NCBI RefSeq assembly: GCF_009914755.1
Contig: NC_060933.1
Source: the human T2T-CHM13v2.0 reference genome, Homo sapiens
Reading direction: 5' to 3' (one strand)
DNA: 64,000 bases
Shown here: positions 39,574 through 43,844 of the stretch, in pieces
Position numbering within the stretch: position 1 is the stretch's first letter
Layout: each line of letters begins with the position of its first letter
The notes under the pieces: model-generated
Told to the model about the DNA's origin: nothing
The model's database searches: none
Seen by the model: the letters and a program-made list of their open reading frames with translations, nothing else
Made by a program: the position numbers and the translations under genes

Positions 39574-40666
39574 ACATCCCTCATCTGGCCAGCAGTGCCG
39601 TGGAGACCGAGTTCTGAAGCAGGCCTTTGTGAGGTCAGAGGTGGAGTTCTGGGTGGGCACTCTGGGCCTCACAGTCCCAGAGGAAAGGCCTGTCCTCCAA
39701 GCCAATGTGCAGCCTGACTCTGGGGCCAGCGCCTGAGGAAGCCCTCCCTGAGCCCCAGCCCTGGGGAAGGCTGAAGAGGCCTCTGAACCCCCAGCGCTGG
39801 GGAGAGCTGTGCAGAATAGGACTGGAGGTGGAAGTGTTGGAGATTAACAGCCAGATGGAGGGGACGGCGGGAGGCCCTGGGTCAGTCCTCAGGGAACCCC
39901 ATTCTGAAGGGGGAGAGGGAAACTCAGGCCCAGTCCTCAGGGGCCCCCAGTCTGAGAGGAAGGAGGACACACGAGCCATATTTGCAGAGAGACACCAGCC
40001 TGCGAGAGGAGGTAGAAGCCCAGGCCTGGCCCTCCGAGGGCCCCTAGTCTGAGGAGCAGTCCACCTGCCCTCGGGAAAACACCTCCCTTAGGAAAGGCCA
40101 GCAAGGCCCCCGTAAAGGAGCCACAGCTGGATCGGGGCATGGGGCTCGGGGCCCAGCGGCGTGGGAGCTCCGGGACCGAGGTGCAGTCAGGAGAGGCCCT
40201 GGGGGCCAGCGGCAGTCCAAGAGGACTTTTGGAGCCAAGGCCTGACTGGGTCTCAAACAATGGGGCAGGCAGTTTGGGGTTTCAGCAGGTGGCCCAGTGC
40301 TGAGACACAAGGGAGTTGTTTCTGGTCTGCAGACACTGAGGACACTTGCTATGTGGCGTGGTGGATGGTGGGTAAGTCCTGGGAATTTCTGGCACCAGGT
40401 TCCATGGGTGGGAAGGGGCATAGGATTCAGTTGTCCAAAGCTCAGGTGTGGGAATGGAACTGTCCTGTAGAGGGTGCCAAAGACCAGGTCTGGAAACTGC
40501 ATAGCCCCAGTCCCCACCCCCACACACACCATCCCACCCCTTCCAGCTTTTTCTGCAGATCTTTCTGCAGGGGTGAGGCAGGGAGAGGAAGGGGTCGGCC
40601 GCAGTTCCGGGGCTTCCTAGTCAGAAGCCCTCTGTAAGGCACTAACTTCCCTCTTCCCTCTGCAGA

Positions 40667-40964
40667 TTTTTTTTTTTTTTTTTTGAGACGGAGTCCCACT
40701 CCACCCAGGCTGGAGTGCAGTGGCACAATCTTGTCTCACCACAGTCTCTGCCACCCAGTTCAAGTGATTCTCCTGCCTCAGCCTCCCAAGTAGCTGGGAT
40801 TACAGGCATGCACCACCAAGCCCAGCTAGTTTTTTTGGATTTTTAGTAAAGACAGGGTGTCACCATATTGGTCAGGCTGGTTTCGAACTCCTGACCTCAG
40901 GTAATCCACCCGCCTCGGCCTCCCAAAGTACTGGGATTATAGGTGTGAGCCACTGTGCCCGGCC
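40667..40964 (-). mobile_element. AluS
   Basis: TSD TCCCTCTGCAGATT on both sides. Confidence 0.92.
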
Positions 40965-41242
40965 TCCCTCTGCAGATTCTACGTGGGCTCTAAGCAGCCT
41001 CTAAATTGCCTGAACACCTAAGGCTTATTTGCTAGTTGACATCTGATCTATTCTGACACTGAAAATTTCAGTGCTTTAGGGTGCTAAAAGGAAAAAAGAG
41101 GGTTTGCAAGGAATCCTGCAGTTGCTGAGGGGGACCCTGATAAGGGAATTTTAAGCAATTATAGTAAGTGTCACTAAACTTTTTAAAAAATCTTTAACCA
41201 GATTAAACTTACACAATTTTGTTATAATTTGTGTTTCTGCAG

Positions 41243-41350
41243 CTTCCAATTGTGGACAAGATAAGGACCATTGCCCAGGCTGTCTATGGAGCCAAAGATA
41301 TCGAACTCTGTCCTGAGGCACAAGTCAAAATAGATCGTTACACTCAGCAG
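41243..41350 (+). pseudogene. MTHFD1L: MTHFD1L-derived exon (108 nt)
   Basis: [51 protein letters not shown]. Confidence 0.92.
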
Positions 41351-42867
41351 GTAAAAGTTGTAATTTTAGGGGAAAAGAAAAAATTCACCTTAGGCTCTCA
41401 GAATACTCAGCTTGACTTGAGGATTTGTACATGTCTCACCAGCTAACCTCTGCTTAATCTATTTTCTGATTAACAAAGATGAAAGCAATATCCTCGGGTA
41501 GAGTGTACACTATATTTAGAACTTTATGGTGAGGCATGTATCCTCTGATCCATGCACCATTTACTTCTGTGACTATAAATGTGTCTGATATGGGTGGTAT
41601 CCCTGTTTGTAGGTGATGTGTGATCTTTCATCCCTCCCACTCAGCCCAGAATGTTGAAACTATCCTTTGGAGTAGAGCTGCGGAGTCAGATTTACATGAA
41701 TTGCAATGCTTCCTCTTCCTTACAGGCCTCTTACTACCTTAAAAATGCTAGCAAGGTGCCAGGGTAGGCAGATAGGAGTGCAACCTATAAAGATGGGAAC
41801 GTTTGCTGTTCTTATGCAAGCGGTTCATTGGCTTTTTACTGAGCTGGTCCACTGAGGTTGAAGGCTCCATCATCTTCTACCTCTAGCCACTGAGAAAGGC
41901 AAGTAGGCAAACAGCTGGGAAGGTGGCTATGATCTGACAGCATGTGTCATCACCTAGTCCAGTGACAGTCATGATGAATCAACTCCATTACAGGAGGCTC
42001 AGCCACCTTTTACCAAAAGGACCATGTGCCTCCAGTGTCCCTCCTACTTTGGTGTAATCAGATAGATAGAAGTCAGAACATTTTAAGAGCCTGCTGGCTA
42101 AAGAGCTTCATGATTGGTAGTGTTGACCTTATCTTTAAAAACAATCTCCAACTCCTTATTCTTTTTTGTAAACCCATTTGAAATTTTGTTAAATGCTACC
42201 ATTGCCAGCCAGGGTATTTGTTCTCCTAGGTTTGGTAAAATAGGAACTCAGAAAGTTCTAAATTCTTAAAATTTTCCCTGATGTTCTTGGCTTACCCTTT
42301 ACAAAAAGGATTCCCAAGCACTGCTCTGTGCCTAGGCATTGTGGTGAAGTTTTCATTCATGTGCAATGAACCAAGTAAAATAAGGTCATTCTCATGAGGT
42401 TGCTTTGTTTTTTTTTCCCCTGAGTTTTTAATAATGATATTTAAGACTATCATTTATTGTAATATTAAGTCTTTTCTCCTTTCAGTGTTAAAATGTTATT
42501 TCTTTTATGAAGTAATGTGGTGACAGTATATAGCATACTGGTTGGTTTCTGTTTCTTTTTAATATGCCTACTGACAAAATTTTTACATTAGCAAACCTAT
42601 AGAAATTACTTTAATATTTAACCATGTCTGAAATTCAAAATTCTGGCACCATTCTGAAAGGCAGTTGTGATTCTCACTCAGCAAAATTCTTATCAGTATA
42701 GAAGAGTGGAGATTTCAAAAAGAAAATGGCCCCAAGCCCAAGTCCTCCCTAAGTTGATAAGACTCTAAGATCTTCCAAATAGTTTTAGGCTAAGTCTTAT
42801 GAAAATTTGACTAAAGATTTCATTCCCTTTATCTCTATCAAGGAAATACTCCTTAAAACTCGTGTCA

Positions 42868-42981
42868 ACCAGGCATGGTGCTCACACCTGTAATCCCAGC
42901 ACTTTGTTGGGGCAAGGCAGAGGATCAGTTGAAGCCAGGAGTTGAGACCACTCTGAGCAACATAGCAAAACCTCCATCTCT
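42868..42981 (+). mobile_element. Alu left monomer / FLAM
   Basis: Single arm only. Confidence 0.75.
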
Positions 42982-43691
42982 ATTTTTATTTTTTTAAAAG
43001 TTAGTGCCAAGTATGTGGTTGCAATGAATTAGCAAAGCCTCTAAAGGAACACTGTGTGCCATTTAATCAGAAACAGGCTTAGAGGACACTGTGCTTTTTG
43101 TGAGACACCACATGTGACTTCCTGATCTTTCACCTTTGGAACTCTGGGTCAGACATAGACTTTGGTCCTTAAAAACAAGAAGCTTAAATAGTGACCTCAT
43201 CTTAGTTCTTGTAATGTAGTTGCAGATCAAATAACCATGATTCATAAACCAACACAAAGGAACCCTTTGCTTCTTGACTGACTCCAGAATGAGTGAACAA
43301 CATAACTAAGAGCCTAGTCGCAGAGCCTTTCTCCAGATTACCTTGCTGGGTCCCAGATATTAATAGTCTTGGAAAGCGGTTTCTACAGCTGCTGCTTTGC
43401 CTGAAAATAGCAATGCTTTTCCCAAACATGCACATAACACTGCCTTCTCTTAACGAGACCTCCAAAATAAACAATAGTCACCCTTGACCTACTAAACAGT
43501 CATCACATGGAGATGAGTTTTTATCCTCACCTTCTTGCTTCTTCAGTGAACAAGTAGTAACAAGCAGCTCCTGCGTGTGCCTCGATCTGAGCTGGCATAC
43601 CATTGCTGCCGAGACTGTATAAAGTGCAAATTGAAGAACACAGGAGACTCACATCTATATCAGTGAACACATTTTCTTTCCTTTCTTACAG

Positions 43692-43844
43692 GGTTTTGGA
43701 AATTTGCCCATCTGCATGGCAAAGACCGATCTTTCTCTGTCTCACCAACCTGACAAAAAAGGTGTGCCAAGGGACTTCATCTTACCTATCAGTGATGTCC
43801 GGGCCAGCATAGGTGCTGGGTTCATTTACCCTTTGGTCGGAACG
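43692..43844 (+). pseudogene. MTHFD1L: MTHFD1L-derived exon (153 nt)
   Basis: [66 protein letters not shown]. Confidence 0.93.

What the first reader, a model, noticed from the sequence alone, without database searches (positions are those of the whole stretch)
40351..43844. Candidate chimeric micro-gene: AQP7 upstream DNA supplies an ATG and donor in frame with the MTHFD1L exons
Seen: about 900 bp upstream of the AQP7 copy, on the opposite (+) strand, there is an ATG at 40351 (G at -3) and a consensus donor TGG|GTAAGT at 40371/40372, exactly 21 nt later. Splicing to the phase-0 acceptor at 41243 and then to 43692 gives an uninterrupted frame: [94 protein letters not shown]. That is 94 aa, still open at the last donor. 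Inference: duplication placed promoterless MTHFD1L exons head-to-head with an intact AQP7 promoter, so divergent transcription could produce a new spliced RNA or peptide under adipose/PPAR control. Caveats: an out-of-frame ATG in strong context at 40260 would compete if transcribed, the terminal exon is unknown, and MTHFD1L-pseudogene transcripts may already be annotated at such loci.
Basis: partly seen in the sequence, partly recalled or inferred. Interest (0 to 1): 0.8.

Follow-up and report, generated by a model that had tools for sequence, protein, structure and literature searches.

The report
Chance start codon in annotated pseudogene intron
The start codon and splice signal are really there, but they sit in the first intron of a known, non-coding AQP7/MTHFD1L fusion pseudogene transcript, are about as common as chance allows, and have no support as a new protein-coding micro-gene.

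Summary
The ATG at 40351 and the donor TGG|GTAAGT at 40371/40372 splice in frame to 41243-41350 and 43692-43844, giving 94 open codons. With the annotated last exon the frame stops after three more codons, at 97 aa.

The architecture is as inferred. AQP7 upstream DNA runs to 40990. It is joined at 40990/40991 to a promoterless 3' fragment of MTHFD1L. This module occurs six times in the genome.

The micro-gene itself is not supported:
- The ATG and donor already exist at the true AQP7 locus, so the duplication did not create them.
- A site this good turns up by chance in about 20-28% of comparable stretches.
- Two other ATG-to-donor combinations nearby also read in frame.
- The curated RefSeq RNA NR_160669.1 uses a different first exon, 38441-39080, which puts the proposed exon inside its intron 1.
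- There is no CpG island or TATA box, and four upstream ATGs would compete, one in a strong context.
- Differences among the copies look neutral.
- The encoded piece is only positions 443-527 of the 556-position FTHFS profile.

Verdict: an already annotated chimeric transcribed pseudogene. No expression data were available, so use of the junction remains untested.

The parts
38441..39080 (+). Annotated first exon of NR_160669.1 (LOC102724904). It is made of DNA antisense to AQP7-pseudogene intron 1. Its donor is ACAG|GTAAGG at 39080/39081.
   Evidence: Gene table supplied with the finding. Donor read and scored 11.4. The donor is identical in 6 of 6 chimeric copies and in the AQP7 parent. The exon holds 7 ATGs. 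No ATG opens the MTHFD1L frame in this transcript (frame 1).
39305..39570 (-). Exon 1 of the AQP7-like pseudogene LOC102724922. Its start site faces the MTHFD1L fragment.
   Evidence: Gene table supplied with the finding. The region is 96.4% identical to the true AQP7 locus.
39632..39644 (.). DR1 element AGGTCAGAGGTGG, PPRE-like, 62-74 bp upstream of the annotated AQP7-pseudogene start.
   Evidence: Pattern scan. Identical in the window, the AQP7 parent and the 2 other copies aligned, 4 of 4. A review places the human AQP7 PPRE at -46 to -62 (PMC11505742, passage).
40260..40262 (+). Competing upstream ATG in a strong context (ACAATGG), out of frame with 40351. It is itself in frame with phase-0 donors at 40368 and 40446.
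40351..40371 (+). The proposed 7-codon first coding exon (MWRGGWW). It could also be read as the 3' part of a 39-nt cassette exon, 40333-40371, behind acceptor TTTCTGGTCTGCAG|.
   Evidence: ATG present in 7 of 7 sequences (six chimeric copies and the AQP7 parent). Codon 6 is TGG in 5, CAG in the C2 copy and CGG in the parent.
40372..40377 (+). GTAAGT donor-like site.
   Evidence: Score 8.8. Unchanged in 7 of 7 sequences.
40669..40965 (-). Alu element flanked by 13-bp direct repeats CCCTCTGCAGATT (40656-40668 and 40966-40978). It was inherited from the AQP7 locus.
   Evidence: Sequence read. Many 70-83% Alu matches, and the AQP7 parent is collinear straight through it.
40990..40991 (.). Breakpoint joining AQP7-upstream DNA to an MTHFD1L intron, 252 bp before the first retained MTHFD1L exon. 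About 3 bp (AAG) of microhomology.
41243..41350 (+). MTHFD1L-derived exon, 36 codons, FTHFS profile positions 443-477.
   Evidence: Pfam PF01268, E 2.3e-5, 23.2 bits, below the 27-bit cut-off on its own.
43692..43844 (+). MTHFD1L-derived exon, 51 codons, FTHFS profile positions 478-527.
   Evidence: Pfam PF01268, E 1.3e-17, 63.7 bits. Also found in the genome census.
51443..52155 (+). Annotated terminal exon, derived from DNA of the MTHFD1L locus downstream of the last retained exon. The MTHFD1L frame stops at TGA 51452-51454. AATAAA lies at 52121-52126.
   Evidence: Gene table. The acceptor, the first four codons (including the stop) and AATAAA are identical in 6 of 6 copies and in the MTHFD1L parent.

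Best explanation
The window holds one of six near-identical copies of a pericentromeric duplication module. In it, the 5' end and upstream region of an AQP7 copy (minus strand) were joined, at 40990/40991, to a promoterless 3' fragment of MTHFD1L (plus strand).

The module is transcribed as the known non-coding chimeric RNA NR_160669.1. That RNA starts antisense within AQP7-pseudogene intron 1 (38441). It splices from 39080 over the AQP7 promoter region to the two MTHFD1L exons, and ends in an exon with its own AATAAA.

The ATG at 40351 and the GTAAGT at 40372 are incidental sequence inside intron 1 of that RNA. They were inherited unchanged from the true AQP7 upstream region. They read in frame with the MTHFD1L exons only because those exons are recent copies of phase-0 coding exons.

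Shown: the sequence features, the origin of each part, the breakpoint, the copy number, the chance rate and the lack of constraint among copies.

Inferred: that the site is not used as a translated first exon.
For: (1) Origin and breakpoint.
- The AQP7 parent is collinear with 38001-40990 and the MTHFD1L parent with 40991 to at least 55989. The junction has about 3 bp of microhomology.

(2) Copy number.
- Six chimeric copies at 98-100% identity: five places on C9 and one on C2. Each parent matches only its own side (7 of 7 and 8 of 8 candidate places scored). The eighth place is an exon-only match on C11.

(3) The ATG and donor pre-date the fusion.
- Both are present at the true AQP7 locus.

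(4) Chance rate.
- 281 of 1000 and 193 of 1000 simulations, and 28.4% of 620 real windows, contain an equally good ATG-open phase-0 donor.
- In the real intron, ATG 40260 is also open to phase-0 donors at 40368 (score 7.9) and 40446 (score 8.2).

(5) The curated transcript.
- It uses the stronger donor at 39081 (11.4 against 8.8).
- It has no ATG opening the MTHFD1L frame before the internal Met of exon 3.

(6) No promoter-like features on the plus strand.
- CpG observed/expected is at most 0.43 in every 200-bp window from 38400 to 41399.
- There is no TATA-like motif in 39571-40371.
- A transcript starting just beyond the AQP7 start would carry ATGs at 39705, 39855, 40139 and 40260 before 40351.

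(7) No constraint among the copies.
- Nucleotide differences from the window copy in the 261 coding nt, as synonymous:non-synonymous, are 1:0, 0:1, 0:1, 0:0 and 1:5.
- Counting the shared R63S change once gives about 2:6, against a neutral expectation of 61:200 sites.

(8) Splice-site decay in two copies.
- The C2 copy has a weakened donor (GTGAAT) after the last MTHFD1L exon.
- The C9 79.9-Mb copy has a 2-bp deletion in the pyrimidine tract before the first MTHFD1L exon.

(9) The product would be a fragment.
- It would hold only FTHFS profile positions 443-527 of 556. By inference this is a slice of a large domain, not a folding unit.
Against: - No expression data of any kind (RNA-seq, CAGE, Ribo-seq, MS) could be consulted, so use of the 40371^41243 junction is untested. 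One curated transcript does not exclude minor isoforms.
- The donor is a good one: 7 consecutive positions could pair with U1.
- The plus strand has no AATAAA or ATTAAA between 39081 and 41201 (the only hit is ATTAAA at 41202). An upstream-antisense RNA, if initiated, would therefore not meet a canonical early poly(A) signal.
- The 97-codon frame is open in 6 of 6 copies. Its stop lies in the last exon, so the RNA would escape nonsense-mediated decay.
- Against the MTHFD1L parent, the window's exons differ at 6 synonymous and 5 non-synonymous positions. That gives dN/dS of about 0.25 with 61 and 200 sites. This could be read as constraint. However, it includes the parent's own constrained branch, and I had no outgroup to polarise it.
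- AQP7P1 and AQP7P3 are reported up-regulated in adipogenesis (PMC7362937, passage), so these promoters can be active.
- The donor matrix was recalled, so absolute scores are approximate.
Confidence: 0.74

Rival explanations
1. The donor at 40372 is used, but only in minor non-coding isoforms of the same transcribed pseudogene. It would serve either as an alternative first exon of an upstream-antisense RNA from the AQP7-pseudogene promoter, or as a 39-nt cassette exon (40333-40371) between annotated exons 1 and 2. No meaningful translation would start from ATG 40351.
For: - The site lies in a transcribed intron of NR_160669.1 (gene table).
- The donor scores 8.8.
- Of the 16 AG sites examined between 40200 and 40351, the AG ending at 40332 has the highest pyrimidine fraction upstream (0.62) and reads TTTCTGGTCTGCAG|.
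- There is no canonical poly(A) signal on the plus strand before 41202.
Against: - No transcript evidence was seen here, and the curated model skips the site.
- As a cassette exon it would lie behind a 640-nt leader with 7 ATGs.
- As a first exon from a start near the AQP7 promoter it would lie behind 4 ATGs.
- The same abstract (PMC11230626) says antisense transcription terminates rapidly.
- The promoter is CpG-poor. That such promoters show less divergent transcription is my recollection, not a result here.
Confidence: 0.2
2. A plus-strand RNA starts upstream of 40351, uses 40351-40371 as its first coding exon, and splices to 41243 and 43692 and on to 51443. It is translated into a 97-aa chimeric peptide, possibly under PPAR or adipose control through the shared AQP7-type promoter.
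For: - The frame is intact in 6 of 6 copies, with the stop in the last exon.
- The ATG has G at -3.
- The DR1 element is preserved.
- AQP7P1 and AQP7P3 are induced in adipogenesis (passage).
- Fusion genes built from partial duplications can be translated. CHRFAM7A is an example (PMC8998457, abstract in the listing).
Against: - It needs either a start site within the 88 bp between 40263 and 40350, or leaky scanning past ATG 40260 in the strong context ACAATGG.
- The +4 base of ATG 40351 is T.
- The combination is expected by chance in 19-28% of cases and is not unique.
- It is ancestral at AQP7, where there is nothing for it to splice to.
- Differences among copies are mostly non-synonymous.
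- The product is 15% of an FTHFS domain plus 10 unrelated residues.
- RefSeq classes the locus as a non-coding transcribed pseudogene.
- No paper among the searches describes such a product.
Confidence: 0.04

Closest known systems
LOC102724904 / NR_160669.1, 'MTHFD1L pseudogene' (RefSeq transcribed pseudogene), with the neighbouring AQP7-like pseudogene LOC102724922
   Same: It is the same locus. The two MTHFD1L-derived exons (41243-41350 and 43692-43844) and their splice sites are exactly those in the finding. The RNA is already a chimera of AQP7-locus DNA and MTHFD1L exons.
   Different: The annotated first exon is 38441-39080, not 40351-40371. The RNA is classed as non-coding, and the MTHFD1L frame has no upstream ATG in it.
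CHRFAM7A-type fusion genes made by partial segmental duplication (PMC8998457 and PMC11176066, abstracts in the listing)
   Same: A 3' block of exons from a parent gene was duplicated without its promoter and joined to foreign upstream DNA that supplies the transcription start and first exon.
   Different: According to those abstracts, CHRFAM7A has a functional protein product (a negative regulator of the alpha7 receptor). Here there is no evidence of translation, only 87 parental codons are retained, and the copies drift neutrally.
Promoter upstream antisense transcripts, and control of promoter directionality by U1 sites and poly(A) signals (PMC11230626 and PMC3826338, abstracts in the listing; the original 2013 reports are recalled, not read)
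   Same: Antisense initiation would occur at an active promoter, and a U1-type donor with no early poly(A) signal would allow the RNA to elongate and splice. The plus strand here does have strong donors and no AATAAA or ATTAAA before 41202.
   Different: The only documented plus-strand start (38441) lies 1.1 kb inside the AQP7-pseudogene transcription unit. The known RNA therefore overlaps AQP7-pseudogene exon 1 in antisense rather than diverging from the promoter.
Small-ORF or microprotein genes that arise de novo from non-coding sequence
   Same: A short ATG-initiated frame that exists only in a recent lineage-specific arrangement.
   Different: Most of the frame is a decaying copy of an old coding sequence, not de novo sequence. 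No translation or selection evidence was found.

Membership tests
Unprocessed (duplicated), truncated, transcribed pseudogene | Homology to the parent gene that includes introns, i.e. a genomic copy and not a retrocopy | tested here: met
   93.5% identity over 15144 aligned columns, collinear with the MTHFD1L locus on C6, introns included. Intron 41351-43691 alone is 94.2% identical.
Unprocessed (duplicated), truncated, transcribed pseudogene | Cannot encode the parental protein (truncation or disabling changes) | tested here: met
   The copy begins 252 bp before the exon at 41243. Only FTHFS profile positions 443-527 of 556 are retained. In the genome census each of the six copies shows a single FTHFS match, against 11 exon matches for MTHFD1L on C6.
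Unprocessed (duplicated), truncated, transcribed pseudogene | Evidence of transcription | not testable with these tools
   This rests on the supplied annotation (NR_160669.1, BestRefSeq) and on one paper that lists LOC102724904 among up-regulated genes (PMC9592791, passages). I examined no expression data myself.
Protein-coding (micro)gene | Complete ORF with start, in-frame splice junctions and stop | tested here: met
   94 codons to 43844, and 97 with annotated exon 51443-52155. Open in 6 of 6 copies.
Protein-coding (micro)gene | A transcript that contains the proposed exon junction 40371^41243 | tested here: not met
   The only transcript in the supplied gene table joins 39080^41243. The proposed exon is intronic in it. 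Minor isoforms could not be checked.
Protein-coding (micro)gene | Purifying selection on the frame | tested here: not met
   Among copies there are about 2 synonymous and 6 non-synonymous differences, against 61:200 sites. Against the parent the count is 6:5, and it cannot be polarised. The numbers are small.
Protein-coding (micro)gene | Translation (ribosome footprints, peptides) | not testable with these tools
   No Ribo-seq or proteomic resource was available. The searches found no paper reporting a product.
Divergent (bidirectional-promoter) transcript of the AQP7-type promoter | Plus-strand start site within a few hundred bp upstream of the minus-strand start (39570) | tested here: inconclusive
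   The annotated plus-strand start is at 38441, on the other side of the AQP7-pseudogene start. There is no CpG island or TATA box in 39571-40371. No CAGE data were available.

The most novel reading that the evidence does not exclude
In tissues where the AQP7-type promoters of the six modules are active (adipose, perhaps testis), upstream-antisense initiation yields a spliced RNA whose first exon ends at 40371. Translation from ATG 40351 then gives a 97-residue ape-lineage peptide carrying a slice of the formyl-THF synthetase domain. This would be a multi-copy, PPAR-responsive fusion micro-gene of the CHRFAM7A kind.
Probability: 0.03. Interest if true: 0.45.

Novelty: already known. Interest (0 to 1): 0.1.

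Why it matters
If the peptide were real, it would be a young, multi-copy fusion gene born at a segmental-duplication junction. That would make a modest addition to the short list of such human or ape genes.

As it stands, the locus is an annotated chimeric transcribed pseudogene, and the proposed start exon is an ordinary coincidence.

The analysis does add three things:
- an exact breakpoint (40990/40991);
- the six-copy census;
- the observation that any phase-0 block of recently copied coding exons will find an in-frame ATG-plus-donor upstream about one time in four. This is a useful caution for similar first-stage calls.

Tried and rejected
- Literature:
  - 'LOC102724904' is in 1 paper, only as a differentially expressed gene.
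  - 44 papers hold at least one of the five terms. None of the 30 listed holds 'MTHFD1L pseudogene'.
  - 'AQP7' + 'MTHFD1L' + 'segmental duplication' gave 0 papers.
  - 'AQP7' + 'antisense transcript' + 'bidirectional' gave 2 papers, both irrelevant by title and abstract.
  - No supplementary files were opened. Expression tables in supplements might mention the locus.
- Rfam on 38000-44200 gave 0 families at gathering score, so no known structured RNA explains the stretch.
- I looked for the homologue of MTHFD1L's last coding exon with short recalled motifs. I searched 20 kb of the parent and window 38000-53001, then window 43845-64000. No convincing hit appeared, so whether the module retains that exon is undetermined. 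It does not affect the verdict.
- I considered Alu-Alu recombination as the origin of the junction and rejected it. The Alu at 40669-40965 has its own 13-bp target duplication, is present at the AQP7 parent, and ends 25 bp before the breakpoint.
- I did not fold the hypothetical spliced peptide or search with it.
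Full report
**1. The observation**

I read 38400-41400 and 43600-43950 and recomputed the splice product from the window file.
- The ATG is at 40351-40353, with G at -3 and T at +4.
- Seven codons (MWRGGWW) end at 40371, and GTAAGT follows at 40372.
- The acceptors before 41243 and 43692 are the RefSeq exon borders.
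- The three pieces give 282 nt = 94 codons with no stop.
- Adding the annotated last exon (51443-52155), the frame reads three more codons and stops at TGA 51452-51454. The hypothetical product is therefore 97 aa, and its stop is in the last exon.
- The competing ATG at 40260 is out of frame and in a strong context.
- The distance to the annotated AQP7-pseudogene exon 1 end (39570) is 781 bp, rather than about 900 bp.

**2. Where the DNA comes from**

Searching the window's own genome with 40200-40660 gave 7 places (7 of 7 candidates scored):
- the window itself;
- four more on C9 (40.51, 42.78, 77.63 and 79.92 Mb) at 99%;
- one on C2 (95.09 Mb) at 98%;
- one at C9 33.42 Mb at 96%.

Searching with 40975-41450 gave the same six high-identity places. 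It also gave C6 152.23 Mb (95%, from query base 17 onward) and an exon-only 88% match on C11 (8 of 8 scored).

I fetched 10-15 kb around each place and aligned them.
- The C9 33.42-Mb locus, the true AQP7 upstream region, is collinear with window 38001-40990 (96.4% over 2991 columns).
- The C6 locus, MTHFD1L, is collinear with window 40991 to at least 55989 (93.5% over 15144 columns).
- The breakpoint is therefore 40990/40991, with about 3 bp (AAG) shared by both parents. It lies 252 bp before the first retained MTHFD1L exon.
- The Alu at 40669-40965, with its 13-bp target duplication, came along with the AQP7 piece.

**3. The ATG and donor are old and unremarkable**

- In the true AQP7 locus both the ATG and GTAAGT are present. 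Only codon 6 differs (CGG for TGG). The C2 copy has CAG there. So 7 of 7 sequences carry both signals, and the fusion did not create them.
- With a simple donor matrix (frequencies recalled, so scores are approximate) the donor scores 8.8. The three annotated donors score 11.4 (39081), 7.2 (41351) and 10.3 (43845).
- Inside the annotated intron 39081-41242, 6 of 19 GT sites scoring at least 4 are in phase 0 behind an open ATG. So are 3 of 8 sites scoring at least 6, and 2 of 2 scoring at least 8.
- ATG 40260 reaches phase-0 donors at 40368 (7.9) and 40446 (8.2).
- At the observed score:
  - 281 of 1000 first-order Markov simulations of the intron contain at least one such site;
  - 193 of 1000 simulations of the AQP7-derived part (39571-40990) do;
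  - 28.4% of 620 sliding 2162-nt windows of this 64-kb window (both strands) do;
  - 10 of 21 plus-strand and 11 of 38 minus-strand donors at that score have an open in-frame ATG.

The coincidence is expected roughly one time in four.

**4. What is annotated, and how the proposed exon sits in it**

- NR_160669.1 (BestRefSeq, supplied table) starts at 38441. That is inside intron 1 of the AQP7-like pseudogene and antisense to it.
- It uses donor ACAG|GTAAGG at 39080/39081. It then skips over AQP7-pseudogene exon 1, its promoter and the proposed mini-exon, and lands on 41243.
- In that RNA the MTHFD1L frame is open back into exon 1 but has no ATG before the internal Met of the 43692 exon (frame 1). 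Exon 1 holds 7 ATGs in other frames or short ORFs. This fits its non-coding label.
- The exon-1 donor, the last-exon acceptor, the stop and AATAAA (52121-52126) are the same in 6 of 6 copies. The last three are also the same in the MTHFD1L parent.

**5. Could the site still be used?**

Points for:
- The donor is good.
- The plus strand has no AATAAA or ATTAAA between 39081 and 41201.
- The DR1/PPRE-like element at 39632-39644 is identical to the parent's in the 4 of 4 sequences aligned. A review places the human AQP7 PPRE at -46 to -62 (PMC11505742, passage). Another states that a PPRE is present in mouse and human AQP7 (PMC5796103, passage).
- AQP7P1 and AQP7P3 are reported as induced in adipogenesis (PMC7362937, passage).
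- The AG at 40332 follows the best pyrimidine tract of the 16 AGs examined. A 39-nt cassette exon, 40333-40371, is therefore conceivable.

Points against:
- There is no CpG island (observed/expected at most 0.43) and no TATA-like motif.
- A start near the AQP7 promoter would put ATGs 39705, 39855, 40139 and 40260 ahead of 40351. The last of these is in a strong context.
- Only a start within 40263-40350 makes 40351 the first AUG.
- Antisense promoter transcripts usually terminate quickly (PMC11230626, abstract in the listing).

None of this replaces expression data, which I could not consult.

**6. Selection and product**

- The two exons hit Pfam FTHFS at profile positions 443-477 (E 2.3e-5, below the cut-off alone) and 478-527 (E 1.3e-17) of 556. 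By inference this is a slice of a large domain, unlikely to fold alone.
- The genome census finds this piece once in each of the six copies. It also finds the full exon series of MTHFD1 (C14) and MTHFD1L (C6), and processed copies on C23 and C11 (34 matches from 49 candidates).
- Against the parent the window's 261 coding nt differ at 6 synonymous and 5 non-synonymous positions (61 and 200 sites, ratio about 0.25). This includes the constrained parental branch, and I had no outgroup.
- Among the copies the differences from the window, as synonymous:non-synonymous, are 1:0, 0:1, 0:1, 0:0 and 1:5. That is mostly non-synonymous, as neutral drift predicts.
- The C2 copy has also weakened the donor after the last MTHFD1L exon to GTGAAT.
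- The C9 79.9-Mb copy has lost 2 bp of the pyrimidine tract before the first.

**7. Comparison with what is known, and verdict**

- The locus is the annotated transcribed pseudogene LOC102724904, next to the AQP7-like pseudogene LOC102724922.
- In kind it resembles fusion genes made by partial segmental duplication, such as CHRFAM7A (abstracts in the listing), but without evidence of a protein.
- Searches for the locus name, for 'MTHFD1L pseudogene' with AQP7P names, for AQP7 + MTHFD1L + segmental duplication, and for AQP7 antisense or bidirectional transcripts found no description of a peptide or of the proposed exon.
- Rfam found nothing in 38000-44200.

My estimates:
- 0.74 that the ATG and donor are incidental intronic sequence in a known non-coding chimeric RNA.
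- 0.20 that the donor is used in minor non-coding isoforms.

Interest is low. The architecture is already annotated, and the new element is within chance expectation.

Noticed in passing
window 38001-40990 versus 40991-55989: The AQP7-derived part is 96.4% identical to its parent, but the MTHFD1L-derived part is only 93.5% identical to its parent. This suggests the MTHFD1L fragment was duplicated earlier and the AQP7 piece joined later. Alternatively, gene conversion with AQP7 on the same chromosome may have kept that side younger.
   Followed up: no
window 40260-40446: ATG 40260 (strong context) is open in frame to phase-0 donor-like sites at 40368 (score 7.9) and 40446 (CAG|GTGTGG, score 8.2). 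It would give an alternative, longer in-frame N-terminus for the same MTHFD1L exons. It is as good a candidate as the one reported.
   Followed up: partly
window 51443-52155 and the matching MTHFD1L stretch in L022+L023: The terminal exon of NR_160669.1 has its acceptor, first four codons (including the stop) and AATAAA conserved in the MTHFD1L parent locus. The parent gene may therefore have the same cryptic or alternative terminal exon.
   Followed up: no
G000:C11:18969036-18971450 and G000:C23:56691518-56693301: These are intron-less FTHFS matches with internal stops, i.e. processed pseudogenes of the MTHFD1/MTHFD1L family. The C11 one matches the 41243 exon at 88%.
   Followed up: no
window 38586-38648: A (CA)n-rich microsatellite lies inside the annotated first exon of NR_160669.1.
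   Followed up: no
L017 (C9 79.9 Mb) and L020 (C2 95.09 Mb): There are copy-specific splice-site changes. One is a 2-bp deletion in the pyrimidine tract before the first MTHFD1L exon in the 79.9-Mb copy. The other is GTGAGT>GTGAAT at the donor after the second MTHFD1L exon in the C2 copy, which also carries 4 of the amino-acid changes.
   Followed up: partly
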